From Parcubacteria group bacterium ADurb.Bin305 (GTDB lineage Bacteria > Patescibacteriota > Minisyncoccia > UBA6257), in contig MWBJ01000001.1 of the NCBI GenBank assembly GCA_002069525.1, positions 21,896-85,895 of the forward strand: 64,000 bases of DNA. Direction: 5' to 3'. Of the stretch, positions 1-64,000 are shown piece after piece (position 1 is the stretch's first letter; each line of letters opens with the position of its first letter). A program made the position numbers and the translations under genes. The notes under the pieces are model-generated. The model ran no database searches and was not told the origin of the DNA. It saw only the letters and a list, made by a program, of their open reading frames with translations.

Positions 1-118
1 AATCTAATTAATCTGTACTTTTTCAGATTAATTTAATTTTATTATACTATAGCTTTTAAGAATAATCAAATTTTAGCTAAGACAGAATTAAAGCCAACCT
101 TTGATTGGTGGGCTTAAT

Positions 119-156
119 AAAAAAGGTCAGTAAATATCTGTTTACTGACCTTTATT
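119..156 (-). terminator. Rho-independent terminator candidate downstream of the 508-aa secreted-protein gene
   Basis: Perfect 13-bp inverted repeat aaaggtcagtaaa / tttactgaccttt with a 6-nt loop, followed on the minus-strand transcript by a U-rich tract (UUUAUUAAG). Confidence 0.5.
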
Positions 157-185
157 GTTCAATTTATCTAGTATCTCTAGATAAA

Positions 186-1712
186 TTAAATTATTAATTT
201 TATTTTGATCTTGATTAATTTTCTATCAGGATCGTTGGTTTCTAAAACCAATAATCCGGTTTGAGTCTGAGGGGCTATGAGATATTCTACGTCGTTGAGA
301 GTTAAAGTAATCACTGTTTCTTTATTGGGCTTGATAGTCCCACTAATTTTATTGGTTTTAATAAACTTAGGAATTTCTAAGATTTTCCATTGAAGATCCA
401 ATTGACCTACATTTTTCAAGGTCAATTCATAACTGTTTTTCTTTCCCAGAACTATGAGTAAGTTCCTGTCTACTGTCTCTGGCTTTAAAACCAATTGGGG
501 ATGAGGAAAGTCTGCTAGTTCTGACAGAGTGACAGAAGGGTCACCGTAAATTTCTAACGATAAGACGGAATATTTATACTGATGACTGTATTCTGTATCG
601 AACCCTTGGTACAGCTCTGGTAATTTAGAATGTATAAACTTACCAATAGTATCTTGGGGCAAATCAGATGAACAAAGACAAACCGCTCTAAGAATATTCA
701 ACCCGCTACTCATTATAGCAGCTTTTTTCCCAACCTCAAAAGGTAATTGAGTAATTCTGTTATCTATCTTCGGAACAATCGTGATGATGGAATTTTGAGC
801 TACTGTATCAATGTATTGATCAGAATCTAAATAAACTAAAACAAAGGCAATTCTGTTTTGTTTTTGGATTTCATCAGCTGGAACCAACGGAGTAATCTCA
901 ATTTCCTCGTCACAATCAGCATAAGAGTCTTTATCTAGATCTTCCCTCCAAATAATCCGCTGAGGCGAAGAAAAATAATGATATGGAATAATATTATTCT
1001 TTTGATCTGCGGGAAATTGGAGTTTTCCTGATTCTAAAAAAACTAAATGACTTTGATTAAAAATTTTTGTACTCTCGTTAAGTACAAAATCTGGCTGAGG
1101 TTGTTCCTCAAACCCATTTCCATCAGGACCTAGACCTTCGGTTTCATACAAGGCGGAAAACTGAATTCCCTGTTTGTGTAGGGCTGATTTTATTCTTTCT
1201 CCTTCCTCTGTAGGATTATACCCTTTCAAGTGCCATTTTTTACCTTCCCAAGACCCTAAATATTGCCTAAACTGACAAATAGGGAAAATTCCACTGGTAA
1301 TTATTTTCTTCGCTTTTTCTTTGACAACTGGCACAGAAATCTCAAAAGGCCATCTACCTATAGGCAAATCGTCGACAAAAAAATCAGTATTCAATCGCGC
1401 TTGATAACCGTACTCTGGAAAATCTATGGTCTCTGTTCTAGGTTTTAAATTACCCATAAACAGTACGTACTCCAAATTAGAAATAGAGTTGAAGTATTTA
1501 GTAAGTGCAGTAGGGTCATTGGGAATTTTTAAGTCAATAAGGGATTCAATTTTGAAACTAAACTGATGCTGTTTTTTATTAATCAGATCTTGTACTAATT
1601 CTGACTTCACCTCTTTTTCAAAAAGAACTAGATAAACAGGCTTGGTCTCAGCCCTAACTAAAGGGTTAATTAAAAACAACAAAACAATCAAAATTAAAAT
1701 TTTTTCTTTCAT
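186..1712 (-). CDS. hypothetical secreted protein (N-terminal signal peptide, 508 aa)
   Basis: Long ORF. N-terminus MKEKILILIVLLFLINPLVRA-ETKP fits a signal peptide with an AxA-like cleavage site. No family recognised by eye. Confidence 0.5.
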   Translation of the reverse strand: MKEKILILIVLLFLINPLVRAETKPVYLVLFEKEVKSELVQDLINKKQHQFSFKIESLIDLKIPNDPTALTKYFNSISNLEYVLFMGNLKPRTETIDFPEYGYQARLNTDFFVDDLPIGRWPFEISVPVVKEKAKKIITSGIFPICQFRQYLGSWEGKKWHLKGYNPTEEGERIKSALHKQGIQFSALYETEGLGPDGNGFEEQPQPDFVLNESTKIFNQSHLVFLESGKLQFPADQKNNIIPYHYFSSPQRIIWREDLDKDSYADCDEEIEITPLVPADEIQKQNRIAFVLVYLDSDQYIDTVAQNSIITIVPKIDNRITQLPFEVGKKAAIMSSGLNILRAVCLCSSDLPQDTIGKFIHSKLPELYQGFDTEYSHQYKYSVLSLEIYGDPSVTLSELADFPHPQLVLKPETVDRNLLIVLGKKNSYELTLKNVGQLDLQWKILEIPKFIKTNKISGTIKPNKETVITLTLNDVEYLIAPQTQTGLLVLETNDPDRKLIKIKIKLII

Positions 1713-1847
1713 TTTACCTCCTTTTACCTCCTTTTTATTGTTAAAATACTAAATATAGTATAACAAAATATCCCAGCAGTGTCAAACTAAAATAGCGGAA
1801 GGAAATCCGCTATTTTATTAACTTCTAAACTTATAAATGGTATTCAA

Positions 1848-3284
1848 TTAGAAACTGCCGGGATTAATTTCTCTCCAATTAAACATAGGGAAGATTTTAA
1901 TATTAATATCTTTAGCAACATAATTACCACTGGTTCCCCAACACTCAATCTTATAAGTGTAATTAACAGGACTGCTAACTCTGGGAAACCTAAAAGCATA
2001 CTCCTTATTAAATGGTTTATCTACATTGCCTTGCAGCTCAGAATTTAAACCGCAATTATCAGGCACGCACGACAATTCACAACGTTCACAATCTGTATCG
2101 CTATTAGTTTGAAAAATTAATTTAGTAGGTACTCCGGAAATATTAATTAAAGGATTTCTAATAGTATTATCTTGGCCATTAAAAGAAAAATCATTAATGG
2201 TGCAAATACCAGAAACAATAGGAGGAATTGTATCATCTCCAGAATCATCATCTCCTAAATCATCTCCTAAACCATCATCTTCAGAGCCATCATCGCCTAA
2301 ATCATCATCTACAGGTGGCTGAGTTACAAAACAATTATTAAAACACGCCTCAACATCAGTGTACAAACCTGATGAGTCTTGGTAGCACATTCCGAATTCA
2401 GAATCACAAGAAAAAGATACCTCGCAATCATTATCTAAATCGCAAGTATCAGGACCTTCTCCTAAGACTTCAAGGCAACGAAAGTTGTCACACATTCTAT
2501 GCTTTTGAATACCGCAATCTTCATCACTAGCACATTCATCTATCCCGCACGCCTCAGGTATAAGAATACACTGATTGCCTTGGCATTGAGTATAAGGAGC
2601 ATAAGTATAACCATAAGAAAAATCATAACCATTACCGGGTAGTGGAATTTCTATAGGTAGAATAGTTTCAGCCATAGCGTGAGATACAAAAGGCTGGATA
2701 AGACGAGAAAGCCCTTGGGGTATAAAAGGTAATTCCAGATTTTCACCTGCGCCCGGAAGAATAATAGTAGTATCACCATCTTCTATAATGCCTTCGGGGT
2801 CGATCTCTCCACCCCCGGGAAGAGTAGGCGTACTAGAATAATTCGGATTATCAGGATCCGGATCAGTCCATCCCGTCAGATTCACACGAGGCTCAGTAGT
2901 AGGGGCAGTAAGGTCAACCCCACCACCTCCCCCACCGATAGTAGTTATCAAAGGCCAAGGTGAAGGTATAGGAGGAATAATAGGCATAGGACCGGGCGAA
3001 GAAACAGGGGGCAGGGTAAGACCGGGCTCAACTGTAAGAGGAGGTTCGGAAACAGTAGGAGGTTGAATCGCACCCTCACAATCGCTATCTGACAAACATT
3101 GATCAGGTCCAATACCATCAACTATAACACATATATTATCTAAACATTCTGAATGAGCGCAAAGCATTCTCTCAGACTCATTAAAGGTAACAAGAGAGGC
3201 GGCTTTAGAAAATAAAACAGGCACTGTGGATAAGAAATAAATAGCTAAAAGAGTTAGCAGAAACGGCAAAATTTTCTTAATCAT
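1848..3284 (-). CDS. secreted modular Cys-rich protein with Pro-rich linker, Gly run and poly-acidic (D/G) tract
   Basis: Signal-peptide-like N-terminus. About four modules of the pattern C-x4-C-x5-7-C-x3-C-x-[SL]D-x-DC (examples CQGNQCILIPEACGIDECASDEDCG and CDNFRCLEVLGEGPDTCDLDNDCE). Also a PPxxPP-rich segment, a GGGGGG run and an acidic tract DDDLGDDGSEDDGLGDDLGDDDSGDD. Confidence 0.5.
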   Translation of the reverse strand: MIKKILPFLLTLLAIYFLSTVPVLFSKAASLVTFNESERMLCAHSECLDNICVIVDGIGPDQCLSDSDCEGAIQPPTVSEPPLTVEPGLTLPPVSSPGPMPIIPPIPSPWPLITTIGGGGGGVDLTAPTTEPRVNLTGWTDPDPDNPNYSSTPTLPGGGEIDPEGIIEDGDTTIILPGAGENLELPFIPQGLSRLIQPFVSHAMAETILPIEIPLPGNGYDFSYGYTYAPYTQCQGNQCILIPEACGIDECASDEDCGIQKHRMCDNFRCLEVLGEGPDTCDLDNDCEVSFSCDSEFGMCYQDSSGLYTDVEACFNNCFVTQPPVDDDLGDDGSEDDGLGDDLGDDDSGDDTIPPIVSGICTINDFSFNGQDNTIRNPLINISGVPTKLIFQTNSDTDCERCELSCVPDNCGLNSELQGNVDKPFNKEYAFRFPRVSSPVNYTYKIECWGTSGNYVAKDINIKIFPMFNWREINPGSF

Positions 3285-3305
3285 AAGATTTAATTAATTA
3301 TTGAT

Positions 3306-4127
3306 TTAGTGAAAAATTCCAATCACAGTGGCGGAGATAGGGGTAATTTTTCCTTGGGCCAAGAAAGAGTCAAAATCAGCTTTGTTGTTGACCTGAGGCA
3401 TTAGATCTTTGGGTAGATAATAATTTTTCATCATTAAGAGCTTGTTTTGACAAGTATCGCCCCACAAACCGGCAAAGCTAATCACTTCGGCCTGTTCTAA
3501 GTTGAGGTTGTAAGAACAAATTAATCCTTGATCATAAAACTTTAATTTTAAAGGGGTAATTAAAGTAAATTCCCCTGGTAAAGGATAAATTTCGTAACAA
3601 ACAGCGTAAGTATTAGGAATTTGTTGAGCAATTTTTTGTTGTCTCAAATGAGTACCATCATTAATATGCCTTAATTCCATTAATTGTTTGGAAGGATCTT
3701 TAGTGATAATAAATGGCAAATTCGTTTTAATAGGGTAAAGAGAAATTGATTGATTTACCAAAGATTGAGCGCTAGCACCTAAGAAAGATTCTAGTTCAGC
3801 TTGGTGGTCGTTAAAGCTAATGACAATATTTTGATTTCTTGATCTAACAGGCACCCAGAAAGTATTACCTGAGGAGGTCTTCATTTTGGTTATCTGGCGA
3901 TAGGATTCTGTGCCTAAACCGCTAGAAAAAACTTCATTCGGAAGAGGCACTAAACCAGAATCTTGAAGTAAGCGTTGAGGGGTAACATTATAAACCAACT
4001 CTTCTAAACGAGGGACTGAAGTTACTTTCGGAGTTTTTTTCTGGTAGTTAAGGATAAGCCCGATAACTCCCACTGCTAAAATAACCCCGATTAAGAGATA
4101 AATTTGTTTTTTGCTGGGTTTAGCCAT
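3306..4127 (-). CDS. hypothetical membrane-anchored protein (single N-terminal TM)
   Basis: ORF with N-terminal hydrophobic helix IYLLIGVILAVGVIGLIL. Lies 21 bp upstream of the Cys-rich secreted protein gene, so likely in the same operon. Confidence 0.45.
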   Translation of the reverse strand: MAKPSKKQIYLLIGVILAVGVIGLILNYQKKTPKVTSVPRLEELVYNVTPQRLLQDSGLVPLPNEVFSSGLGTESYRQITKMKTSSGNTFWVPVRSRNQNIVISFNDHQAELESFLGASAQSLVNQSISLYPIKTNLPFIITKDPSKQLMELRHINDGTHLRQQKIAQQIPNTYAVCYEIYPLPGEFTLITPLKLKFYDQGLICSYNLNLEQAEVISFAGLWGDTCQNKLLMMKNYYLPKDLMPQVNNKADFDSFLAQGKITPISATVIGIFH

Positions 4128-4354
4128 AAAGTTAATTAATTAAAAATTAATTTAAAGAATCTAAATGAAATCTCAAAAACTGACTTGGAGTCATAATTGG
4201 TCTTAGTGCTAAATTACTTTAATTATAACCTTAATAAAATATTAGTCAAGGGTTGATATTAGTCATTCCAAGCTATAAAAAAGCCAACCAAATCCCTCTA
4301 CCTCGCCCTAAAACTGTCTCAAGTTGCCCTAATCAAGAAAAGGGTGATAAAAAA

Positions 4355-5650
4355 TTAATTTATAAAACTCCCTAATAGTTTTTTTATTTTTTGATCTTCT
4401 TTAATAGGACCTAATAGGGCTAAATTTAAAAATTGCGGTTTAATTAACTCCTTGGCTAATTTTTTTACCTCACTGAACCTGACATCTTTAATTTTCTTCA
4501 GATGCTCTTCTAAGCTAATAATTTGATTTTTTAGCAACGCTTGCGAAGCATAATCTGCCGCTACAGCATGAACATTTTCCGAAGATAGAGATAATCTTCC
4601 AATTAAGCAATTTTTAGCTTTTTTGACCTCAGCTTCATCCAGCCGGCTAATCTTAAAAGATTGAAATTCTTTTAAGATATGAGATATAGCTTCTAATACT
4701 CGGCCATTATTTACACCAGCGCTTACTGCCCACCAGCCAGTGTCTGTTTTTAAAGAGAACCAAGAATTAACATAATAAGCTAAACCCAATTTTTCTCTCA
4801 ACAATTGAAAAAGACGACTTGACATTCCTGCGTCTAACACAGCATTTAAAACTTCTAAAGCATACTGACGGGGATCAAAGGTATTGAATGCTCGAAAACC
4901 TAACCAAAGATGAGTTTGTTCAGTGGATTTTTTTTGGATCAACAAATTAGGTTTAATTTGTTTTTCTCTAGTTTTTAATTTTGGCTTACCTTGCCCCAAA
5001 GGAATATTGTGAAAATATTTTTTTACTAAAGCTAAGGCTTTTGTTTCTGAAGAAGGCAATTTACCGCTAAGGGCCACCAACACGGACTGGCTTCTAAATT
5101 GAGATTGCCAATATTGTTGTAGGTCATCTCGAGACAATCGGGCTACTGTTTCCTTACTGCCTCCAATAGGCCAACCAGCTGGTTGATTGCCGTACAATAA
5201 TTTTTCCCATAACTCATAAGCTGTAACTCGAGGATCATCAGCTAACATATTTATTTCTTCTATAATTACGCCTTTTTCTTTTTCTAATTCTTTTTCTGGC
5301 AATAAAGGATGAAGTAATATGTCAGAGGAAACATCCAAAGCCAAATCGGTATAATCTGCGCCTAGTTGAATAAATAAACCTGTTATTTCCCTATCCGTGT
5401 AAGCATTATAATAACCACCAACACTATCAATCTCAGTAGCAATTTTAAAAGTAGAAGGCCGCTTAGGGGTTCCTTTAAAATACATATGCTCTAAAAGATG
5501 GGAAATGCCATTCTGTTCTTTGATTTCAAAATCAGCTCCAGTATTTATTAAAACCAAAACCTTAAATGACAAAACCTCTTTTGAGGGTAATAATAATACC
5601 CGTAAACCATTAGAAAGATTTGTAAAATAAAATTTCCCTGCCTTTAACAT
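4355..5650 (-). CDS. M16 family (pitrilysin/insulinase-like) zinc peptidase
   Basis: Inverted zinc-binding motif HxxEH present as GISHLLEHMYFKGT near the N-terminus. Size of 431 aa is typical of the M16B family. Confidence 0.75.
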   Translation of the reverse strand: MLKAGKFYFTNLSNGLRVLLLPSKEVLSFKVLVLINTGADFEIKEQNGISHLLEHMYFKGTPKRPSTFKIATEIDSVGGYYNAYTDREITGLFIQLGADYTDLALDVSSDILLHPLLPEKELEKEKGVIIEEINMLADDPRVTAYELWEKLLYGNQPAGWPIGGSKETVARLSRDDLQQYWQSQFRSQSVLVALSGKLPSSETKALALVKKYFHNIPLGQGKPKLKTREKQIKPNLLIQKKSTEQTHLWLGFRAFNTFDPRQYALEVLNAVLDAGMSSRLFQLLREKLGLAYYVNSWFSLKTDTGWWAVSAGVNNGRVLEAISHILKEFQSFKISRLDEAEVKKAKNCLIGRLSLSSENVHAVAADYASQALLKNQIISLEEHLKKIKDVRFSEVKKLAKELIKPQFLNLALLGPIKEDQKIKKLLGSFIN

Positions 5651-9836: not shown

Positions 9837-10373
9837 TTAAAAGGAAGAGAAAAATAGATGCACATTTCTAGGAGTCACAGCGGTTTCTGCTCTAAAATTA
9901 TAAGCTTCTTCCCTCACAGTCGTTTTAGCCTCCAATAAAATAATAATGCTTATTTGTGAGTTGCCACCCCCACCTTGTAATCTAAATTTGGCCTCTGTAA
10001 CCTCGACGGTTGGATCAAATAGAGCTTCGGGTAAACTGCCACCAATCTCTTGGAATATATTGTTATCTTTAAATTCATAACAAGTGTCTTGCCAAATATT
10101 ATCTACCCAATATTTAAAACAAATTTTTTTAGTATCTAAAATTTCAAAATCTTTTCCCATTCTAATGGCTCGCGCTATAATTTCTAAATTATTGCGGATA
10201 TTATTGTCAGCATTCAAAATGCTATAAGCAACTTTTTCTGCCCTAGTAGTGCTAATATAGATTTGACTTAGAACGATAACAGTCATCATAAAAATACCGG
10301 TAGCTACCAGCACCTCTACTAACGTAAAACCTTTTAAAACATTATTTTTATGACTGTTATAGCGCATAAACAT
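9837..10373 (-). CDS. prepilin-type N-terminal cleavage/methylation domain protein (pseudopilin)
   Basis: KGFTLVEVLVATGIFMM motif (G-F-T-L-x-E followed by a hydrophobic helix). Confidence 0.6.
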   Translation of the reverse strand: MFMRYNSHKNNVLKGFTLVEVLVATGIFMMTVIVLSQIYISTTRAEKVAYSILNADNNIRNNLEIIARAIRMGKDFEILDTKKICFKYWVDNIWQDTCYEFKDNNIFQEIGGSLPEALFDPTVEVTEAKFRLQGGGGNSQISIIILLEAKTTVREEAYNFRAETAVTPRNVHLFFSSF

Positions 10374-10413
10374 TATATCTAAACATTACTCTTATTTATT
10401 AAAATTACTTAAA

Positions 10414-10989
10414 TTAAAAATTAAAATAATTAAATAAATGATCTTCAACAACTAATTGGTAATCAGTGTTTTTAGTACGCCACTTCATAATTATTTCGAC
10501 TCTTATTTCATTTTGTTTTAGAAGATCGGGATGGACTGGATCACGAGTAGCTATATTAGTAATTTTAATTATTCTCTTAAAGGTAGTATCATCCCCTCGA
10601 GCATAATTAAAAAGTTTATCATTGGTATCATATTTTAGAGGACGCGCTGCTTCTTCATTCATTAAAGGAATTAAATAAGGAGTTTCTTCAGTAACCATAG
10701 CTTGAATTTCATACACTCCCTCATTTAACCCATTATTCCAGCTGATAGGCTCGCTGTTATTAAAAATCCTTAACAAGTTAGTATCTCGAATGTTTCTGAC
10801 TAACTCCAGACCCTCTTGCGCTAAAAAACTAGCCGTTAACCTATCGCTAATATTAGTAACAGAATATAAAACCCTATTAACTACCAAAAAACTTGATAAA
10901 ATCCCTACTATTAAAATAGAAATAGCCACTAAAGCTTCTATTAAGGTAAAACCTCTGGTTGAAGAAGATAAAATTTGCTTTACTCTCAT
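10414..10989 (-). CDS. prepilin-type N-terminal cleavage/methylation domain protein (pseudopilin)
   Basis: RGFTLIEALVAISILIVG motif. Confidence 0.6.
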   Translation of the reverse strand: MRVKQILSSSTRGFTLIEALVAISILIVGILSSFLVVNRVLYSVTNISDRLTASFLAQEGLELVRNIRDTNLLRIFNNSEPISWNNGLNEGVYEIQAMVTEETPYLIPLMNEEAARPLKYDTNDKLFNYARGDDTTFKRIIKITNIATRDPVHPDLLKQNEIRVEIIMKWRTKNTDYQLVVEDHLFNYFNF

Positions 10990-10994
10990 AAATT

Positions 10995-11600
10995 CTAATC
11001 CGTTATCAAATTTTTATAGACCTGCCCACTTTTTGAGACTGTAATTTTATAGTAAGGAATATCAACGCCCTCTAGTTTTAAAATTAGAACTGCTTGGTTA
11101 TTATCTCCGCTTAAAGCAGGGAAAAATACTACCCGCGGTTCTGGTGGGACATAACAAATACTATTTATATTTTTGTAAGATAGTTCTACTCCTTTTAAAA
11201 AAGAAATTTTTTCTACTGCCTCTCCTTCGTTGTAATGGTAATTGCCTTCTTTGGTAACAACGTTGCATAAATCTTTAAATATAATTATCTCGGTTTGCGG
11301 GACATCTTCTCCAAAATATACCCCCCAACCACAAATATTTTCTCCGGATTCGCTCAAAGTAGACATAGCTGAATGTTGCGCCCCTTGAAGCTCAAAAACA
11401 ATCCTAGTAGCCATTCGAGTGAGTAAAGATGTATTTTCTGCCTGTCGTGAATAACCTAAAATCATAGTACTTAAAAGAGTAATAATAGTTATGGTCACCA
11501 ACATTTCGATGATAGTAAAGCCAGCGTTCTGCTTAAACATTCCCAACTGTTTTACTCGCTGTTTTTGTGTAACTATTATCTTGTTATGGCCTAATTTCAT
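10995..11600 (-). CDS. prepilin-type N-terminal cleavage/methylation domain protein (pseudopilin)
   Basis: AGFTIIEMLVTITIITLL motif. Confidence 0.6.
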   Translation of the reverse strand: MKLGHNKIIVTQKQRVKQLGMFKQNAGFTIIEMLVTITIITLLSTMILGYSRQAENTSLLTRMATRIVFELQGAQHSAMSTLSESGENICGWGVYFGEDVPQTEIIIFKDLCNVVTKEGNYHYNEGEAVEKISFLKGVELSYKNINSICYVPPEPRVVFFPALSGDNNQAVLILKLEGVDIPYYKITVSKSGQVYKNLITD

Positions 11601-11623
11601 AATTCTTAACTTATAGCTTTACT

Positions 11624-12550
11624 TTAACTATATAAATACATCATGAAAGTATAAAAACCATTATGCATTAAATCTGAACATAAAAGCACCGCCAAAGCGC
11701 TAAAAGATAAAATCGGCACAAAAGGTAAATAACTTTTCAAAGTTTTTTTCTTACTTAAAATTAAAATTATACCAATAAGCCCCCCTAATAAAGCGCTGAT
11801 TAAATAAGCTACAAGAGCATTATTCCAGCCCAAAATAACCCCTATAAAAAGAATTACTAAAGCATCCCCCCAACCAAAATACTTTTCTTTAGTCAACCAA
11901 ATAAATAAAGCGCAAAGGCCAAAAGGAATAATAGTAGCTGCCAATAAAGACCAAGGAGCATAACTTATAAACCACGGCCGCACCATTTCGATTTCGCCTA
12001 AGGTATAAACTCTAGGCAATAAGGTCCATTTCTGATTACCAAAACGTGCTGTATTCCCAACCAAGAATGATAAAATTAATCGCCAGATAAAACTTAGACC
12101 AATAGCAGGAATTAAAACATTATTAAGCACTAAATATTTTTTAAGGTCATAAACCGAGATAATTATAAAAACACATACCCAATAAAACCAAAAACCAACA
12201 TTAATAAAAATCAATACCCTCTCCAAGATTGAAGTCGCCGGAGTCCAAAGTAGATATAAGGCATAGATCCTTCTAAATCTCCAGTATACTAACACGAACA
12301 AAATACCGGTAATTAATTCGACCAAAGGATACTGAGAAGAAATTTTTTTGTGGCAATGACTGCACCGGCCTTTTAAAATAATAAAACTCAACAAAGGAAT
12401 TAATTCCCACCAGCTTAATTTAGCTTGACACTGAGGGCAATGAGACCGACCTGAGAAAGCTGACTCCTCGGTGTCAGCCCTCATAATAATTGTGTTCAAG
12501 AAGCTGCCTATAATAGTGCCGATTATGAAAAAGAAAATATACCACCACAT
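11624..12550 (-). CDS. pilD: prepilin peptidase (A24 family)
   Basis: N-terminal tetracysteine CPQC..CSHC typical of PilD. Polytopic membrane protein with a conserved GWGD Asp box. Confidence 0.8.
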   Translation of the reverse strand: MWWYIFFFIIGTIIGSFLNTIIMRADTEESAFSGRSHCPQCQAKLSWWELIPLLSFIILKGRCSHCHKKISSQYPLVELITGILFVLVYWRFRRIYALYLLWTPATSILERVLIFINVGFWFYWVCVFIIISVYDLKKYLVLNNVLIPAIGLSFIWRLILSFLVGNTARFGNQKWTLLPRVYTLGEIEMVRPWFISYAPWSLLAATIIPFGLCALFIWLTKEKYFGWGDALVILFIGVILGWNNALVAYLISALLGGLIGIILILSKKKTLKSYLPFVPILSFSALAVLLCSDLMHNGFYTFMMYLYS

Positions 12551-12560
12551 AATAATTTAT

Positions 12561-13028
12561 TTACGGTTTAACACAGTAAATAGTATCTTCTATCTCTGTG
12601 CCGCAATTAACCCCATAGATATTATTACCATCAATATCGTCATCTAAAGCAGGATCTTTTGTTTCCAAGACACTACCTAAAACATAATCTTGACCAGAAG
12701 TACCATATTCATAGCTATACCCAGAATTAGATAAAGGATCCCGAGGAATTTTAGATACCCCAATTCCAATATAAGGGTCGGTTAAGATATCGGAAAGTTC
12801 TTCCCAATTTGAGGCTCGTGGATAAAATTGATACTTACTATAGTATAGCTCTAAAGCCACCATGGTATTATGTAAATCGGCAATTCGTCGAGCATCTCTA
12901 GCTTTAGCCCGAGAGCTACCTAACCCTACTAAAATTATAGAGGACAACAGAGCAATTATGGTTACCACGATTAACATTTCAATAAGCGTGAAACCATAGG
13001 AAAATCTTTTTCTACTAATGTTGATCAT
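12561..13028 (-). CDS. type IV pilin (likely major pilin)
   Basis: YGFTLIEMLIVVTIIALL prepilin motif. 155 aa. Sits immediately upstream of pilD. Confidence 0.65.
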   Translation of the reverse strand: MINISRKRFSYGFTLIEMLIVVTIIALLSSIILVGLGSSRAKARDARRIADLHNTMVALELYYSKYQFYPRASNWEELSDILTDPYIGIGVSKIPRDPLSNSGYSYEYGTSGQDYVLGSVLETKDPALDDDIDGNNIYGVNCGTEIEDTIYCVKP

Positions 13029-60005: not shown

Positions 60006-62480
60006 ATGAAACTGGCCCATAAATTTCTTTTAATATTATGCTTAATCTTGGCGCTCGGTGGAATATATTTATGGTATTTAAGCAGAGACCTACCAGATCC
60101 TCAAAGTTTTCCGAAAAGAGTAATTCCTCAATCCACTAAAATTTATGATCGCACTGGTAAAGTTTTACTCTATGAAGTTTACCAAGGAGAAAAAAGAACA
60201 GTAATTAGTTGGGATCAGATTTCTCCTTATGTTGTTTACACCACCTTGGCTGCTGAAGATCATACCTTTTATACCCATCATGGTATAGTGTTAAAAAGTG
60301 TTGTCCGAGCTACCCTCCATAACCTCTTGCATCCCGGCAGTTTGCAGGGGGGTTCTACTATTACCCAGCAATTAGCCAGAAATGCTTTCCTCACTGCTGA
60401 TAAAACTATCAATAGAAAATTAAAAGAATTATTATTGACTTTTAGCATAGAAAAAAATTATTCCAAGCAAGAAATTTTGACTATGTATTTAAACCAAATA
60501 CACTTTGGTCATAATGTTTACGGAATAGAAAGTGCCAGTCAATTTTATTTCAACAAACCGGCCAAAAATTTATCATTAAGCGAAAGCGCTTATTTAACCG
60601 CCTTAATCCAAGCACCCAATTATTATAGCCCTTATGGGAACCACAGAGAAGATCTGGAAGTTAGAAAAAATTGGGTCTTATCTCGGGTGGATTTGTTAAA
60701 TTATTTTCCCAAGGATGTAGTAGAAAAAGCTAAACAAGAAAAAGTAGCTTTTGCCCCGCCGAGTTTTGGGATTAAAGCTCCTCATTTTGTTATGTATGTT
60801 AAAGACATTTTAGCCCAACAATATAGTGATGAAGATTTAGAAACTAACGGTTATTCTATTATCACTACTTTGGATATGCGACTGCAGACTATCGCTGAAG
60901 AAGTAGTAAAAAAGTACGGCGACCTGAATGAAAAAAAAGGAGCCCATAATTTAGCTTTAGTTGCTCTTGATCCTAAGACCGGTCAAATTTTAGCCATGGT
61001 TGGCTCTAAGGATTATTGGAATATCGAGGCTGAGGGCAATGTTAATGTGACCACCAGAATACGTCAACCCGGCTCTGCCTTAAAACCAATTATTTATGCC
61101 ACTGCTTTGGAAAAAGGTTATTCAGCAGAAACTATTCTTTTTGACACTGCTTTGAATGGGAGAGCTGCTAACTTTTCTTTAAACCCAACTCAACCTTATT
61201 ATGTTAGTAATTACGATGGTCGCACTAGAGGCCCAGTAACTTTAAGACAAGCCCTCGCTCAATCTTTAAATATTCCCTCAGTTAAATTGTTATATCTAGT
61301 AGGTATCCAAAATGTCTTAGATAATGCGAAAAAATTAGGCATCACTACTTTTACCCAACCAGCGCAACATTATGGTTTATCATTAGTTTTGGGTGGAGGT
61401 GGGGTTACTTTATTAGAACTCACTAATGCCTACTCTACTTTTAATCAAGAAGGATTGTTTCATCCTTACGCTTCTATTTTAGAGATAAAAGACTCTCAAA
61501 GTCACACTTTATCAAAATTAAACCCATCTCATCCTCAACGAGTATTTAGCCAACAAACCAGTCGTTTAATTAGTGATATCTTGTCTGATAATGAAAGCCG
61601 AGCCCCTATTTTTGGATACCAAAGCGCTCTTTATTTTCCTAATATGCAGGTGGCTGTGAAAACTGGAACCGCTGATGAATTTAGGGATTTTTGGGCTATT
61701 GGTTATACCACGTCCTTAACTGCCGGAGTTTGGGTTGGTAATAATGACAGAAGCCCAGCTACTACAGCGAATGCTTTAAGTTCAGAGTTAGCAGCGCCCT
61801 GCTGGCATGAATTTATAGAAAAGGCCAGTCGATATTACCCCAGCTCCACTTTTACGCCTCCAACTCCAACCACCCCACCTAACCCCTTAAAACCTATGCT
61901 AAATGGAAAATATATTAATGACCGGCTGTACAAAAATAAGGTCACTGGGGAATTAAAAACAGTAAAAGAGGTCCATACTATTCTCTATTTTATTAACAAA
62001 AACGATCCGGTGCATGGCTGTCCCGCCCAGCCAACTGATGATGCCCAATTCTATAATTGGGAAATACCAGTATTATTGTGGGCTAAAACCAATATTCCTA
62101 ATTTTGATCAAGAGTATAATCTAAATCCGGGACCCGATTATGAAGCTTTAGATTGCGAGATCTCACAACCGTTAGAACTACCTGAAATTATTGAATTTCC
62201 AGATATTCCTCAAATTACTTTATTAAACCCCCAAGATGGTCAAGGGGTAACTAATGATTTAACAATAGAAGTTCAAATTATAGGCCAATTAGGAGGGAAT
62301 AGGCCTAAAGTATACTTAAATAATAACCTGATAGGAGAGATGGTGGTTAATCCTAATGGTTCTTACTCTTTAATTTTACCGTACTCCCAATTATTATTAG
62401 AGAGTAACCAAATTAAAATAGAAGTGCAGGACCAATATAATCAAGTTAATAGTAAAGTGATAACGATTTTAAAAAAATAG
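60006..62480 (+). CDS. class A penicillin-binding protein (bifunctional glycosyltransferase/transpeptidase, PBP1A-like) with Pro-rich C-terminal extension
   Basis: N-terminal TM. GT51 motifs EDHTFYTHHG and GGSTITQQLAR. Transpeptidase SALK (SxxK), SLN (SxN) and KTGT. About 200-aa C-terminal extension containing TPPTPTTPPNP. Confidence 0.85.
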   Translation: MKLAHKFLLILCLILALGGIYLWYLSRDLPDPQSFPKRVIPQSTKIYDRTGKVLLYEVYQGEKRTVISWDQISPYVVYTTLAAEDHTFYTHHGIVLKSVVRATLHNLLHPGSLQGGSTITQQLARNAFLTADKTINRKLKELLLTFSIEKNYSKQEILTMYLNQIHFGHNVYGIESASQFYFNKPAKNLSLSESAYLTALIQAPNYYSPYGNHREDLEVRKNWVLSRVDLLNYFPKDVVEKAKQEKVAFAPPSFGIKAPHFVMYVKDILAQQYSDEDLETNGYSIITTLDMRLQTIAEEVVKKYGDLNEKKGAHNLALVALDPKTGQILAMVGSKDYWNIEAEGNVNVTTRIRQPGSALKPIIYATALEKGYSAETILFDTALNGRAANFSLNPTQPYYVSNYDGRTRGPVTLRQALAQSLNIPSVKLLYLVGIQNVLDNAKKLGITTFTQPAQHYGLSLVLGGGGVTLLELTNAYSTFNQEGLFHPYASILEIKDSQSHTLSKLNPSHPQRVFSQQTSRLISDILSDNESRAPIFGYQSALYFPNMQVAVKTGTADEFRDFWAIGYTTSLTAGVWVGNNDRSPATTANALSSELAAPCWHEFIEKASRYYPSSTFTPPTPTTPPNPLKPMLNGKYINDRLYKNKVTGELKTVKEVHTILYFINKNDPVHGCPAQPTDDAQFYNWEIPVLLWAKTNIPNFDQEYNLNPGPDYEALDCEISQPLELPEIIEFPDIPQITLLNPQDGQGVTNDLTIEVQIIGQLGGNRPKVYLNNNLIGEMVVNPNGSYSLILPYSQLLLESNQIKIEVQDQYNQVNSKVITILKK

Positions 62481-62590
62481 AGTTTTTTAAACAAAATAGA
62501 GTTTTTTAAACAAAATAGAGTTTTTTAAAAAAATAGAGTTTTTTTAAAAAAATAGAGTTTTTTTAAAAAAATAGAAATTTCTTTAAAAAG
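62474..62590. repeat. tandem direct repeat, ~19-bp unit AAAATAGAGTTTTTTAAAC x6
   Basis: The ATAGAG core recurs at 62478, 62497, 62516, 62534, 62553 and 62571 (spacing 19/19/18/19/18, last copy degenerate). The first copy contains the PBP stop codon. There is no spacer alternation, so this is not CRISPR. Confidence 0.8.
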
Positions 62591-62760
62591 AAAACCTAAA
62601 AAAAATAAAAAACAAAAAATAGAAAAATTAAGTAAGAATAATAACCCAGCAGCACTATGGCTATTATTAAGATAGAGAGCAAAGCGAGTTAAATAAAATA
62701 TTATAAAACCCAAAAACATAACAGCTGTATTTATAAAAATACAGCTGTTATAGTAAAACT

Positions 62761-63063
62761 CTATTGTACTTTAAAAGAAATTCTATTAATTTGTAGCTTA
62801 GGATTATTAGTCTGCTGGATTAAATAATTCTTTATTTCTCCCTCTTCTATTTTTAATTGAGAGGCAATGCTGGAATTTTTACAAATAATCACCAAGTGGT
62901 TTTTAGAATAATTAGCTAAACTCACCCAATCACTAGGCCAATGTTTCACTAAAGCGCAATATTGACCTAAAACCTCCTTTAAATTTCTTTCATTTTCGTA
63001 ACTTTGAAATCCTTTTTTAATAAACCATTGTTTAAATGAATTATTAAGCGCAATAAAAGACAT
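62761..63063 (-). CDS. DUF721/DciA-like protein
   Basis: 100-aa protein directly downstream of dnaN (4-bp gap). The pattern ...WPSDWVSLANYSKNHLVIICKNSSIASQLKIEEGEIKNYL...NRISFKV resembles DUF721, which typically neighbours dnaN/recF/gyrB. Confidence 0.5.
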   Translation of the reverse strand: MSFIALNNSFKQWFIKKGFQSYENERNLKEVLGQYCALVKHWPSDWVSLANYSKNHLVIICKNSSIASQLKIEEGEIKNYLIQQTNNPKLQINRISFKVQ

Positions 63064-63067
63064 AAAA

Positions 63068-64000
63068 TTACATTTTTAACGGCATTAATAAATAAAAGAA
63101 ATCATTTTCTTCTTTGCCTTTTATTAAAATAGGATTGATATCTTTATTTAAACCAATAAAAATTTCTTGATAATTTGTAGAGTTTAAACCATCTAGGAAA
63201 AAACGATAATTTAAATTTATTTCTAAATCATTTTTAGGGCCTTTAATATTAAGAATTGGGCTAATATTGGTAGCTGCACCTAGAGTAGGGTCTTCAGCGG
63301 TAGTAATAATTTGATGCTTAGTAGGTGAAAAAATAAATTTAACATTATTAATTTTACCGCTAAAAAGGCCGCTTAATTTAACAGCTTCAATTAAATCTTC
63401 TTTTGGGGTAATAATTTCATACTCAAAACTTTGAGGAATAATAGCAGAATAATTCGGATATTGAGCGTTCATTAATTGAGAAATTAATCTAAGATCACCT
63501 AAATTAAATTGAACCTGATTAATTTCTGGTATTATTTCTATTAATTCAGTTTCATTATTATTTTCAGCAATTAATCTTAATAATTCTTGGATTACTTTTA
63601 ATGGTATTATTAAAGAGATGTCATTAGTAATATTGGTTTTATAATTATCCTTAGTAATAATTTTTTCGGCTAACCGAAAACTATCAGTACCTACAAGCCT
63701 TAAATTATTTTTTTCTAATTTCAGAAAAACCCCATTTAATTCAACTTTGGAGGAAACATTATTGATAGCCGGAATAACTTGCTCTAAACTTTGTTGAAAT
63801 TTTATTTTATTTATCGAAATATATTTATCGGACTTAATATGAGGTATAATAGGAAAATCTTCAATATTAAACCCTTGAAACATTACACTATGTTTACCAT
63901 CTTCGACTTTTAAATTTTGACCATCTTGAATTAAATTAATCTTTTCTTCAGATAGGTTACTTAAAAAATTATTAAACACTTTAGCAGGTATAACCACTTC
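63068..64000 (-). CDS. dnaN: DNA polymerase III beta subunit (sliding clamp), N-terminally truncated by the window edge
   Basis: The ORF runs to the window end. ~310 aa of three-domain clamp-like sequence. Context: DUF721 and gyrB lie nearby. Confidence 0.75.
   Translation of the reverse strand, partial: EVVIPAKVFNNFLSNLSEEKINLIQDGQNLKVEDGKHSVMFQGFNIEDFPIIPHIKSDKYISINKIKFQQSLEQVIPAINNVSSKVELNGVFLKLEKNNLRLVGTDSFRLAEKIITKDNYKTNITNDISLIIPLKVIQELLRLIAENNNETELIEIIPEINQVQFNLGDLRLISQLMNAQYPNYSAIIPQSFEYEIITPKEDLIEAVKLSGLFSGKINNVKFIFSPTKHQIITTAEDPTLGAATNISPILNIKGPKNDLEINLNYRFFLDGLNSTNYQEIFIGLNKDINPILIKGKEENDFFYLLMPLKM

What the first reader, a model, noticed from the sequence alone, without database searches (positions are those of the whole stretch)
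186..4127. Operon of three exported hypothetical proteins including a modular Cys-rich, Pro-rich and poly-acidic surface protein
Downstream of the M16 peptidase, three consecutive minus-strand genes all carry export signals. The first is a membrane-anchored 273-aa protein. The second is a 478-aa protein with ~4 disulfide-type modules of the form C-x4-C-x5-7-C-x3-C-x-(S/L)D-x-DC, whose CxSDEDC ending is reminiscent of LDL-receptor class A calcium-binding modules. It also has a PP-rich stalk, a G6 run and a 26-residue D/G acidic tract. The third is a 508-aa secreted protein. Such Cys-rich secreted proteins are candidates for host-surface adhesion in episymbiotic bacteria. None has an obvious characterised homolog by eye. 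A tandem duplicated Shine-Dalgarno (ggaggtaaaaaggaggtaaa) precedes the last gene.
Basis: partly seen in the sequence, partly recalled or inferred. Interest (0 to 1): 0.5.

Follow-up and report, generated by a model that had tools for sequence, protein, structure and literature searches.

The report
Variable secreted surface-protein gene pair
In an uncultivated ultra-small bacterium (Pacebacteria), a secreted disulfide-rich modular protein is encoded next to a secreted protease look-alike that lacks catalytic residues; the pairing is kept across relatives, parts of both genes are swapped between strains, and the function is untested.

Summary
The three minus-strand ORFs exist as described (273, 478 and 508 aa). 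All three have N-terminal export or anchor segments, judged by rule of thumb. They are not one operon. A strong hairpin and a near-consensus promoter, both conserved in relatives, separate gene 2 from gene 3.

The 478-aa protein carries three copies of a real 4-Cys repeat, H-x2-C-x4-C-x10-C-x5-C. This spacing holds in 345 of 480 units across about 80 proteins from CPR bacteria and DPANN archaea. Pfam barely models the repeat, and no LDLa, EGF or Dickkopf match appears at E up to 10. The protein also has a fourth, different 4-Cys module, linkers, and a rare Ig-like C-terminal domain ending in an invariant NWREINPGSF tail.

The 508-aa protein probably has a gingipain (peptidase C25)-like body plus a PapD-like Ig domain. 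Its family has no conserved Cys or His, so it is likely a pseudo-protease.

Genes of these two families are adjacent in at least seven distinct loci, with gene order swapped in some. Gene 1 occurs only in close relatives. Two segments, one in each protein, are replaced as linked alleles between strains that are 98.7% identical around them.

My reading is a lineage-restricted, diversifying surface-protein pair; this function is inferred. A statistically significant match to EBV gp350 domain B remains unexplained.

The parts
4222..4249 (-). Promoter-like site upstream of p1 (TTGACT-16-TATAAT)
   Evidence: It matches 11 of 12 consensus positions; sequence checked. This is a consensus match only. 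Promoter-like sites are not enriched overall in the region (15 found against 15.2 expected).
3306..4127 (-). p1: a 273-aa protein with one N-terminal transmembrane segment (aa 9-27, nt 4047-4103). It matches no family and is found only in close relatives.
   Evidence: ORF and hydropathy. Pfam, NCBIfam, PHROGs and PADLOC give nothing. Only three homolog clusters were found, at 50-99% identity. It lies upstream of p2 in L004, L009 and L018 and is absent from L001, L006, L011 and L012.
1848..3284 (-). p2: a 478-aa secreted modular disulfide-rich protein. NCBI lists it as hypothetical protein KBI15_00250, Candidatus Pacebacteria MAG.
   Evidence: It has 24 Cys, and the signal peptide covers aa 1-28 (nt 3201-3284).
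3078..3161 (-). 4-Cys repeat unit 1 (aa 42-69: CAHSECLDNICVIVDGIGPDQCLSDSDC), with one extra Cys at its start
   Evidence: It fits the family consensus, with H at position -2, G11, G13, D15 and D-x-D-C. It aligns to repeat units of P0002.
2910..3068 (-). Pro-rich stalk plus G6 run (aa 73-125)
   Evidence: Read directly from the sequence. The AlphaFold2 model gives pLDDT below 50 and no secondary structure here.
2769..2978 (-). Strain-variable cassette of p2 (about aa 103-172)
   Evidence: Identity to haplotype B (L009) is 37-47% here, against 97-100% elsewhere in the protein.
2502..2822 (-). Segment matching Pfam Herpes_gp350_B (aa 155-261); unexplained and probably not a true family member
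   Evidence: Pfam scores 28.2 bits against a cut-off of 25, E=1.8e-6. The best PDB match is 8sgn_G at E=4.4e-5. Shuffle tests give z=15.6. The score drops to 16.3 bits in the 87% ortholog, and the AlphaFold2 model is disordered here.
2424..2585 (-). 4-Cys repeat units 2 and 3 (aa 234-287)
   Evidence: Regex hits. BLASTP to P0002 repeats gives 1e-12. This is the best-matching stretch for most of the roughly 78 repeat-bearing hits. The AlphaFold2 model shows beta-hairpins at pLDDT 55-66.
2331..2408 (-). Module 4 (aa 293-318, C-x6-C-x13-C-x3-C). It is conserved within the C-terminal-domain family but differs from the repeat.
   Evidence: It aligns with P0003, P0013, P0014 and P0096.
2232..2309 (-). 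26-residue D/G acidic linker (aa 326-351)
   Evidence: Sequence checked. The same position holds poly-Thr linkers in P0003, P0014, P0015 and P0061, so it is a low-complexity spacer rather than a conserved acidic site.
1851..2225 (-). Conserved C-terminal domain (aa 354-478): an Ig-like beta-sandwich with 6 Cys, ending in the tail PMFNWREINPGSF (nt 1851-1889)
1788..1817 (-). Hairpin between p2 and p3 (TAAAATAGCGGA-TTTCCT-TCCGCTATTTTA), terminator-like
   Evidence: Folding gives -18.9 kcal/mol and z -4.74, with 0 of 200 shuffles as stable. It is conserved in L008, L009, L010 and L001. The simple terminator scan did not list it.
1757..1785 (-). Promoter-like site for p3 (TTGACA-17-TATACT with TG)
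   Evidence: It matches 11 of 12 positions. TTGACA with a -10 box also stands upstream of p3-family genes in L001, L006, L008-L012.
1715..1734 (-). Tandem 10-nt duplication carrying two Shine-Dalgarno sequences (AAAGGAGGTA twice)
   Evidence: Sequence checked. It is present only in the window, L008 and L009.
186..1712 (-). p3: a 508-aa secreted protein. It has a signal peptide (aa 1-21), a gingipain/C25-like body without a catalytic dyad (about aa 25-405, nt 498-1640) and a PapD/ASH/MSP-like Ig domain (about aa 406-508, nt 189-497).
   Evidence: - Foldseek against PDB: RgpB 4ief_D ranks 2 at E=6.5e-7 over 547 columns; Kgp at about 3e-5.
- hhalign against RgpB gives P=9.3e-4 for aa 25-122 aligned to RgpB 10-114. 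The alignment stays colinear up to the GDPS motif when relaxed.
- The distant family member L011:156-1430 scores E=0.007 against Pfam Peptidase_C25.
- The family has no invariant Cys or His.
- The model is poor (pLDDT 55.6).
543..1352 (-). Allelic, mosaic central region of p3 (about aa 121-390)
   Evidence: The window and P0006 are 99% identical over aa 22-120 but only 45% over aa 121-390. blastn finds almost nothing between 1313 and 578, while the flanks are 98.7% and 86-89% identical.
122..153 (-). Intrinsic terminator-like hairpin after p3 (13-bp stem plus T run)

Best explanation
The locus holds two transcription units that encode Sec-exported envelope proteins of a Pacebacteria (Parcubacteria/CPR) bacterium. 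Their conserved core is a two-gene pair, p2 and p3.

p2:
- It is a secreted protein stabilised by up to 12 disulfides.
- From the N-terminus it has one 4-Cys repeat, a Pro/Gly stalk, a strain-variable cassette, two more 4-Cys repeats, a fourth 4-Cys module, a low-complexity acidic spacer, and an Ig-like C-terminal domain.
- It ends in a flexible, invariant tail, NWREINPGSF.

p3:
- It has its own strong promoter and a doubled ribosome-binding site.
- It is a secreted protein with the architecture of a gingipain: two alpha/beta subdomains followed by an Ig-like domain.
- Its family has no conserved Cys or His. It most likely acts as a non-catalytic binding or scaffolding partner, not as a protease.

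Proposed mechanism:
- The two proteins work together outside the cell. The most economical mechanism is that p3 docks onto the conserved C-terminal domain or tail of p2.
- The exposed variable parts, the p2 cassette and the p3 centre, are diversified by allelic replacement through recombination.
- This pattern is expected for molecules that face a host cell, a phage or a competitor.
- p1 is a membrane-anchored add-on found only in this strain group. It is co-transcribed with p2 and may tether the complex.

What is shown: the ORFs, the export-type N-termini (by rule of thumb), the repeat family and its conserved spacing, the conservation of the gene pair, the separate promoter and hairpin, the allelic mosaicism, and the lack of a catalytic dyad.

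What is inferred: disulfide formation, a physical p2-p3 interaction, surface retention, and any adhesion role.
For: Export-type N-termini.

Repeat family:
- 85 hits among 1.84 billion representatives, about 78 of them through the repeat.
- The 4-10-5 spacing holds in 345 of 480 units.
- In the 362 canonical units, H at position -2 occurs in 90%, G11 in 97% and G13 in 96%, and the period is about 30 residues.
- Companion domains are extracellular: PKD, CARDB, cohesin, LPXTG, PG_binding and PGF-pre-PGF.

Gene pair. C-terminal-domain-family and p3-family genes are adjacent in:
- the window, L016 and L017;
- L008, L009 and L018;
- L001-3;
- L006, with the order swapped;
- L010;
- L011, L012 and L021, with distant p3-like genes placed upstream.
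The surrounding genes differ between these loci.

Separate transcription units.

p3 fold and missing dyad: for the fold; for the dyad.

Tail: it is invariant and lies outside the beta-sandwich.

Mosaic alleles and linked haplotypes.

Background: CPR bacteria are reported to carry widespread extracellular disulfide-forming machinery (10.1101/335083).
Against: - No experiment or co-folding supports a p2-p3 contact.
- Both structure models are poor overall (pLDDT 55.6 and 47.9). The TM-score of p3 to RgpB is only 0.23-0.26, and hhalign gives 22% probability.
- The gingipain assignment therefore rests on several weak but concordant signals.
- No cell-wall or membrane anchor was found on p2 or p3, so they could simply be released into the medium.
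- The most distant C-terminal-domain relative (P0098, locus L014) has no p3-like neighbour on the flanks available.
- Only two haplotypes were seen, so the linkage of the two variable segments could reflect strain structure alone.
- Signal peptides were judged by rule of thumb, not by a trained predictor.
Confidence: 0.55

Rival explanations
1. The locus is one operon of three exported proteins. The middle protein is an adhesin whose Cys modules are LDL-receptor-class-A-like calcium-binding modules.
For: The N-termini are of the export type. The modules end in C-x-[SL]D-x-DC, and acidic residues are conserved in the family: D or N at position 15 in 89%, at position 20 in 81%, and D at position 22 in 69%. 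Calcium binding is therefore not excluded.
Against: - Pfam finds no LDLa, EGF or Dickkopf match at E up to 10 on the isolated modules or on the whole protein.
- The unit has 4 Cys in 30 aa, not 6 Cys in 40 aa.
- A hairpin and a promoter lie between genes 2 and 3.
- Gene 1 is not conserved with the other two.
Confidence: 0.1
2. p3 is an active processing enzyme, either a protease or a sortase-like transpeptidase in the manner of the C25-family PorU. It would recognise and cleave the conserved C-terminal domain or tail of p2, perhaps attaching p2 to the envelope.
For: - p3 has a gingipain-like architecture.
- p2 has a conserved Ig-like C-terminal domain with an invariant tail. By analogy, from my own knowledge, PorU removes an Ig-like C-terminal domain from type IX secretion cargo.
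- The gene pairing is strict.
Against: - No Cys or His is conserved anywhere in the p3 family.
- In the relaxed alignment, catalytic His211 of RgpB falls in a gap and Cys244 aligns with Asp298.
- This lineage is not expected to have an outer membrane or a type IX secretion system (my knowledge).
Confidence: 0.12
3. The adjacency has no functional meaning. These are unrelated, fast-evolving orphan secreted proteins that sit together in a variable genomic region.
For: All three proteins are lineage-restricted, with few homologs. The locus decays: L001 holds a truncated p2 next to a repeated 33-nt element, and L010 holds frameshifted p3 copies. L014 lacks a p3 neighbour.
Against: - The adjacency survives an inversion of gene order and changes of flanking genes, down to 21-25% identity between p3 homologs.
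- The variable segments of both genes change together in the two haplotypes.
Confidence: 0.15
4. Residues 155-261 of p2 are a true homolog of the Epstein-Barr virus gp350 domain B beta-sandwich, that is, a receptor-binding domain shared with a herpesvirus glycoprotein.
For: - Pfam PF20676 scores above its gathering cut-off (28.2 against 25 bits, E=1.8e-6).
- Five PDB gp350 sequences match at E between 4e-5 and 2e-4.
- Smith-Waterman scores 112 against a shuffle mean of 30 with sd 5 (p about 1e-9). With the Cys module removed, the score is 89 (p 6e-7).
Against: - Half of the signal lies in a strain-variable cassette that haplotype B lacks, where the score falls to 16.3 bits.
- The end of the alignment runs into Cys repeat 2, which has its own unrelated homologs.
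- No other protein among 1.84 billion representatives shares aa 126-229.
- AlphaFold2 predicts no structure there.
- At the scale of the full library, a 25-bit match is about what chance gives.
Confidence: 0.1

Closest known systems
Gingipains RgpB and Kgp of Porphyromonas gingivalis (peptidase family C25, clan CD)
   Same: - The domain order is the same: an N-terminal alpha/beta subdomain, a second alpha/beta subdomain ending in a GDPS-type motif, then an Ig-like domain.
- The motifs are colinear: NLEYVLFMGN against DLTYVLLVGD, LPIGRWP against VFIGRFS, and IYGDPSV against VFGDPSL.
- These are the only whole-length Foldseek matches among the top hits.
   Different: - The p3 family has no conserved Cys or His, so no catalytic dyad.
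- Sequence similarity is below family thresholds. The best Pfam C25 score is 16 bits against a cut-off of 23, and only in a distant family member.
- p3 shows no pro-domain and no type IX C-terminal signal.
- The central region is hypervariable.
PapD-like / ASH / MSP Ig domains (HYDIN/VesB-like PF22544; P. gingivalis PG_0320, PDB 2qsv)
   Different: The window protein scores below Pfam's cut-off (21 against 25.5 bits). Nothing indicates chaperone-usher function.
Bacterial cysteine-rich acidic repeats (TIGR02232 myxo_disulf_rpt / DUF4215; NF033662 acidic double-disulfide repeat; Pfam DUF7107)
   Same: - These are short extracellular repeats of about 30 aa, each with four Cys and conserved acidic residues.
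- They are arrayed in surface proteins.
- P0002 carries both this repeat and TIGR02232 repeats.
- DUF7107 passes its cut-off on one repeat-bearing protein, P0024.
   Different: - p2 matches none of these models.
- Only 2 of 43 repeat-bearing proteins touch DUF7107.
- The signature here (T-H-x-E-C-x4-C-V-x-V-x-G-x-G-x-D-x-C-x2-D-x-D-C) is not modelled as such.
   Same: Both have an acidic C-x-[SL]D-x-DC ending that recalls the D-x-S-D-E calcium cage, and both are small extracellular disulfide modules.
   Different: This unit has 4 Cys in about 30 aa, not 6 Cys in about 40 aa. No profile match appears at E up to 10. The His and G-x-G signature is absent from LDLa (my knowledge of the family).
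Epstein-Barr virus gp350 domain B (PF20676)
   Same: The sequence match is above Pfam's gathering cut-off.
   Different: The match is not conserved in orthologs or in the wider family, is not supported by the structure model, and overlaps an unrelated repeat.

Membership tests
LDL-receptor class A (PF00057) | Profile match to the roughly 40-aa module | tested here: not met
   Pfam gives no hit at E up to 1 on the whole protein or at E up to 10 on the isolated modules.
LDL-receptor class A (PF00057) | Six Cys per module forming three disulfides | tested here: not met
   The units have four Cys with spacing 4-10-5.
LDL-receptor class A (PF00057) | Calcium coordination by the acidic cluster | not testable with these tools
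   Conserved D/N residues exist at positions 15, 20 and 22, but metal binding cannot be assessed here.
4-Cys H-x2-C-x4-C-x10-C-x5-C repeat (uncurated; CPR and DPANN surface proteins) | Significant similarity to multi-repeat proteins | tested here: met
   About 78 proteins match at E up to 1e-3 through aa 41-73 or 229-293. BLASTP against P0002 gives 1e-12.
4-Cys H-x2-C-x4-C-x10-C-x5-C repeat (uncurated; CPR and DPANN surface proteins) | Conserved Cys spacing and the H / G-x-G / D-x-D-C signature | tested here: met
   Units 1 and 3 fit exactly. Unit 2 is a variant, with x11, Tyr in place of His and one extra Cys.
4-Cys H-x2-C-x4-C-x10-C-x5-C repeat (uncurated; CPR and DPANN surface proteins) | Two disulfides per unit | not testable with these tools
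   The model confidence is too low (pLDDT 55-66) to assign the pairing.
Peptidase C25 / gingipain (PF01364), for p3 | Profile match above the Pfam gathering score | tested here: not met
   None of the six close homologs hits the model. The distant relative L011:156-1430 scores 16.1 bits against a cut-off of 23.
Peptidase C25 / gingipain (PF01364), for p3 | Clan CD alpha/beta fold followed by an Ig-like domain | tested here: inconclusive
Peptidase C25 / gingipain (PF01364), for p3 | Catalytic His-Cys dyad | tested here: not met
   No invariant His or Cys exists in the family alignments. His211 falls in a gap and Cys244 aligns with Asp.
HYDIN/VesB/CFA65-like Ig (PF22544; PapD-like), for the p3 C-terminus | Profile match and beta-sandwich fold | tested here: inconclusive
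Herpes_gp350_B (PF20676), for p2 aa 155-261 | Score above the gathering cut-off | tested here: met
   28.2 bits against 25, E=1.8e-6.
Herpes_gp350_B (PF20676), for p2 aa 155-261 | Match conserved in orthologs and in the family | tested here: not met
   The 87% ortholog scores 16.3 bits. The segment is absent from P0003, P0014 and P0015, and no other homolog exists in the library.
Herpes_gp350_B (PF20676), for p2 aa 155-261 | Beta-sandwich fold | tested here: inconclusive
   AlphaFold2 gives pLDDT below 50 and no strands in aa 24-231. Only the query sequence covers this region in the alignment.
Sortase, PEP-CTERM or type IX style C-terminal sorting signals, for the p2 tail | A motif followed by a transmembrane helix and a basic tail, or a recognised type IX C-terminal domain | tested here: not met
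   p2 has no C-terminal hydrophobic segment. NCBIfam and Pfam give no hit on the C-terminal domain.
Single three-gene operon | No internal terminator or promoter | tested here: not met
   A hairpin at 1788-1817 and a promoter at 1757-1785 lie between p2 and p3, and both are conserved in relatives. The real transcripts cannot be tested here.

The most novel reading that the evidence does not exclude
p2 and p3 form a previously undescribed two-component, co-diversifying recognition module of ultra-small episymbiotic bacteria. A catalytically dead gingipain-fold protein uses its former substrate groove to hold the invariant C-terminal tail (NWREINPGSF) of a disulfide-rich partner. Matched variable cassettes in both proteins are exchanged between strains by recombination to change host or partner specificity.
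Probability: 0.15. Interest if true: 0.65.

Novelty: new variant of a known kind. Interest (0 to 1): 0.42.

Why it matters
CPR bacteria and DPANN archaea are thought to live attached to other cells, yet few of their surface molecules are known. This work gives three leads that can be tested.
- A 4-Cys extracellular repeat is shared by both groups and is essentially unmodelled in Pfam.
- A rare C-terminal domain with an invariant tail is always encoded next to a gingipain-like pseudo-protease.
- Allelic cassettes differ between near-identical strains, which marks the exposed and probably selected surfaces.

If the two proteins do bind each other, this would be a clear case of a protease fold reused as a receptor or scaffold in a minimal organism.

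In itself the locus is a lineage-restricted pair of hypothetical proteins, so its importance is moderate.

Tried and rejected
- Pfam, NCBIfam, PHROGs and PADLOC on all three proteins gave nothing for p1, nothing phage- or defence-related, and no LDLa, EGF or Dickkopf match.
- Rfam on 1-4500 gave no RNA family.
- PDB sequence searches with the p3 profiles and with the distant p3-like protein gave no hits at E up to 10.
- Paralog search: the 64-kb window holds no second Cys-rich ORF and no second p2- or p3-family copy.
- AlphaFold2 of p3 (6 sequences) and p2 (10 sequences) was confident only for the p3 N-terminal 70 aa, the p3 Ig domain and the p2 C-terminal domain. For the rest, the fold searches are only indicative.
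- The afdb50 fold library was unavailable.
- Aligning all 78 repeat-bearing proteins failed; a subset of 43 was used instead.
- The genome-contig scan returned a single locus, identical to L001 but labelled Caldisericota. This is probably a binning error.
- Literature searches found no description of these families. They found only general statements on secreted Cys-rich proteins and disulfide machinery in CPR bacteria.
- A sortase-type or WxL-type anchoring signal in the p2 tail was considered and dropped, because p2 has no C-terminal transmembrane segment and no matching motif.
- gp350 homology was considered and is kept only as an unexplained statistical signal.

Full report
**What is there**

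The window carries three consecutive minus-strand ORFs downstream of an M16 peptidase gene at 4355-5650. They are p1 (3306-4127, 273 aa), p2 (1848-3284, 478 aa) and p3 (186-1712, 508 aa). An identical copy of p2 is deposited at NCBI as 'MAG: hypothetical protein KBI15_00250 [Candidatus Pacebacteria bacterium]'. The organism is therefore a CPR/Parcubacteria bacterium, with about 34% G+C.

Each protein has a single N-terminal hydrophobic segment.
- p1: residues 9-27, flanked by Lys on both sides. It is an anchor, and its orientation is not determined.
- p2: ends ...VLFSKA|AS.
- p3: ends ...LVRA|ET. This end is conserved in all six homologs.

These are rule-of-thumb calls, because no trained predictor was available.

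**Transcription units**

p1 and p2 are 21 nt apart, and a TTGACT-16-TATAAT site lies upstream of p1. The 135 nt between p2 and p3 hold two elements:
- a hairpin, TAAAATAGCGGA-TTTCCT-TCCGCTATTTTA, at -18.9 kcal/mol and z -4.7, with no shuffle as stable;
- directly after it, a TTGACA-17-TATACT site with an extended -10 TG, matching 11 of 12 positions.

The same hairpin and promoter stand in front of the p3 orthologs in L008, L009, L010 and L001. Consensus-like promoters also precede the more distant p3-like genes in L006, L011 and L012. p3 ends with a 13-bp-stem terminator.

The arrangement is therefore p1-p2 plus a separate p3 unit, not a three-gene operon. This is inferred from sequence; transcripts were not examined.

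The doubled Shine-Dalgarno sequence is real (AAAGGAGGTA twice, 1715-1734).

**The Cys modules of p2**

A HMMER scan of 1.84 billion representative proteins found 85 matches. About 78 of them match p2 only through aa 41-73 or 229-293, and they carry up to 20 copies of the same unit.

Across these proteins, 345 of 480 detected units have the exact spacing C-x4-C-x10-C-x5-C. In the 362 canonical units the period is about 30 residues and the consensus is T-H-x-E-C-x-N-N-A-C-V-x-V-x-G-x-G-x-D-x-C-x2-D-x-D-C. His occurs in 90% of these units and the two Gly in 96-97%.

- Units 1 (aa 42-69) and 3 (aa 265-287) are canonical.
- Unit 2 (aa 234-257) is a variant with one extra residue and one extra Cys.
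- The 'fourth' module (aa 293-318, C-x6-C-x13-C-x3-C) is a different element. It is conserved only in the C-terminal-domain family.

Pfam shows no LDLa, EGF or Dickkopf match, even at E up to 10 on the isolated modules. NCBIfam's acidic disulfide repeats do not match p2 either. Pfam DUF7107 reaches its cut-off on one repeat-bearing protein, but touches only 2 of 43.

The repeat travels with PKD, CARDB, cohesin, PEGA, LPXTG and peptidoglycan-binding domains. It occurs in Pacebacteria and Parcubacteria, and also in DPANN archaea (Diapherotrites, and a Woesearchaeota PGF-pre-PGF protein). An extracellular location is therefore well supported by association.

**The C-terminal domain of p2**

Residues 354-478 are 46-66% identical to the C-termini of P0013, P0003, P0014/P0095/P0096, P0015 and a fragment in L010. 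They are 32% identical to P0061.

All of these proteins share one plan: a signal peptide, a variable Cys-rich N-terminal part, module 4, a low-complexity spacer, and then this domain. The spacer is poly-Thr in the relatives and D/G here.

The domain has six conserved Cys. It ends in the invariant residues W-R-E-I-x-P-G-x-F, and in all but one member this is the very C-terminus, NWREINPGSF.

The family is rare: about six clusters among 1.84 billion representatives.

**p3**

Word-based search found only five homolog clusters, at 44-88% identity. Context analysis then revealed far more distant members in L011, L012 and L021, at 21-25% identity.

By eye, the remainder resembled gingipains. I tested that as follows.
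I then used the PDB sequence itself for the comparison.
- hhalign of the p3 family against RgpB gives P=9.3e-4 (22% probability) for p3 25-122 aligned to RgpB 10-114.
- When relaxed, that alignment runs colinearly up to IYGDPSV against VFGDPSL, just before the Ig domain.
- Foldseek places RgpB second (E=6.5e-7). RgpB and Kgp (about 3e-5) are the only whole-length matches; every other top hit covers only the Ig domain.
- A distant family member scores E=0.007 against Pfam Peptidase_C25 over the same N-terminal region.

Against this, the model is poor (pLDDT 55.6), the TM-scores are 0.23-0.26, and no score passes a family threshold. I put the gingipain-like fold at roughly 0.7.

Whatever the fold, no Cys or His is conserved anywhere in the family. 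A Cys-His protease mechanism is therefore excluded for the family as a whole.

**The conserved unit is the p2-p3 pair**

A C-terminal-domain-family gene and a p3-family gene are adjacent in the following loci.

| Loci | Arrangement |
|---|---|
| window, L016, L017 | p2 then p3 |
| L008, L009, L018 | p2 then p3 |
| L001-3 | 3' remnant of p2, then p3 |
| L006 | p3-like then p2-like (order swapped) |
| L010 | p2-like, then p3, facing a frameshifted p3 paralog |
| L011, L012, L021 | distant p3-like, then p2-like |

The flanking genes differ between these loci. The window and L006 share the downstream AI-2E-transporter neighbourhood. L011 and L012 are followed by a radical-SAM gene. L001 sits beside an ECF-transporter component.

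The one exception is the most divergent C-terminal-domain protein (P0098, locus L014). Its tail is extended, and no p3-like gene lies on the available flanks.

p1 accompanies p2 only in near-identical genomes (L004, L009, L018) and has no detectable relatives beyond 50% identity.

**Allelic mosaicism**

Six independent assemblies fall into two haplotypes. Haplotype A is the window, L016 and L017. Haplotype B is L008, L009 and L018.
- The DNA is 98.7% identical from 2777 to 1313. That span covers the p2 C-terminal two-thirds, the intergenic region and the first 130 or so codons of p3.
- p2 aa 121-180 falls to 37-47% identity, and aa 91-120 to 73%.
- p3 aa 121-390 is only 45% identical.
- In p3 the N-terminal part groups the window with P0006 (99%), whereas the centre groups the window with P0005 (90%). 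There P0006 is as distant as any other lineage.

This incongruence indicates allelic replacement by recombination. The two variable patches change together in the two haplotypes. With only two haplotypes, that is suggestive rather than significant.

**Most likely mechanism**

I read the locus as a lineage-restricted, diversifying pair of exported envelope proteins.
- p2 is a disulfide-stabilised modular protein held on flexible spacers.
- p3 is a non-catalytic protease-fold partner.
- The invariant C-terminal domain and tail of p2 are the obvious candidates for the constant interface.
- The variable cassettes are the outward-facing parts.

Disulfide formation, the p2-p3 contact, surface retention (no anchor was found on either protein) and any adhesion role are all inferences. 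CPR bacteria are reported to have widespread extracellular disulfide machinery (10.1101/335083).

**An unexplained signal**

p2 aa 155-261 matches Pfam Herpes_gp350_B above its gathering cut-off (28.2 bits, E=1.8e-6). It also matches solved EBV gp350 chains (E=4.4e-5).

Composition does not explain this. Smith-Waterman scores 112 against a shuffle mean of 30 with sd 5. With the Cys module removed, the score is still 89 (p about 6e-7).

Several points argue against true homology.
- Half of the signal lies in the haplotype-A cassette, and the haplotype-B ortholog drops to 16 bits.
- The end of the alignment overlaps Cys repeat 2, which has its own unrelated homologs.
- Nothing else in the 1.84-billion library shares aa 126-229.
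- AlphaFold2 predicts no structure there.

I treat it as a probable coincidence, and it remains unexplained.

**Novelty and verdict**

Neither the repeat, the C-terminal domain nor the p3 family is curated in Pfam or NCBIfam, and I found no description in the searchable literature. The general kind is familiar, though: secreted Cys-rich repeat proteins, and protease-fold plus Ig-domain exoproteins.

I therefore class it as a new variant of a known kind, of moderate interest. It is wrong on the LDLa resemblance, the module definition and the operon, and it missed that genes 2 and 3 form the conserved unit.

Noticed in passing
window 2502-2822 (p2 aa 155-261): The segment matches Epstein-Barr virus gp350 domain B above the Pfam cut-off (28.2 bits, E=1.8e-6). 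Shuffles do not explain it (z 15.6). It is not conserved in the 87% ortholog and is unstructured in the AlphaFold2 model.
   Followed up: yes
window 9837-13028 (minus strand): A cluster of type IV pilin-like genes (N_methyl) with a prepilin peptidase (A24) at 11624-12550 lies upstream of the DNA ligase and tRNA synthetase genes. This is inferred from Pfam marks on the collinear contig L004, which matches the window at 98.4% over the one stretch compared (window 3129-4400) and has ORFs of the same lengths. No link to the p2/p3 pair was tested.
   Followed up: no
L001 4930-4962, 8722-8754, 9366-9398: A 33-nt element (AGTAGGAATAGTAACCTTGATGAATAAAGGACT) sits exactly where the p2-family gene is truncated to a 170-aa 3' remnant. 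It recurs on either side of a small two-gene pair that by eye resembles a HicA/HicB toxin-antitoxin pair (not profile-tested). This suggests truncation by recombination or insertion. The element is absent from the window.
   Followed up: partly
L001 9465-11930: The stretch holds dense families of short palindromic repeats (for example TGTCATCCCCGAA...TCGGGGATCC), which look like REP or MITE elements.
   Followed up: no
L015 (JBPOJC010000050.1): This contig is 99.98% identical to L001 and has 33% G+C, yet it is deposited in a MAG labelled Caldisericota. Its p2- and p3-family genes otherwise occur in records named Pacebacteria or Parcubacteria, so it is probably mis-binned.
   Followed up: partly
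L010 2020-4231 (minus strand); L006 2-349: Extra p3-family copies lie next to the pair. One is broken into at least three reading frames (a pseudogene or an assembly error). Further fragments lie at contig edges. The family is multi-copy and decaying in some relatives.
   Followed up: partly
window 3-74 and L006 4895-4964: A 72-nt stretch is 86% identical between the two. It lies downstream of the pair and, in L006, upstream of an AI-2E-family transporter gene. L008 also has an AI-2E-type gene after p3. The window therefore probably continues into that gene beyond position 1.
   Followed up: partly
window 62001-64000: G+C drops to 27% here, against about 34% elsewhere in the window.
   Followed up: no
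window 3285-3305 and 4128-4160: p1 and p2 have no recognisable Shine-Dalgarno sequence upstream of their start codons, whereas p3 has two perfect copies. This may point to very different translation levels within the locus (read directly).
   Followed up: no
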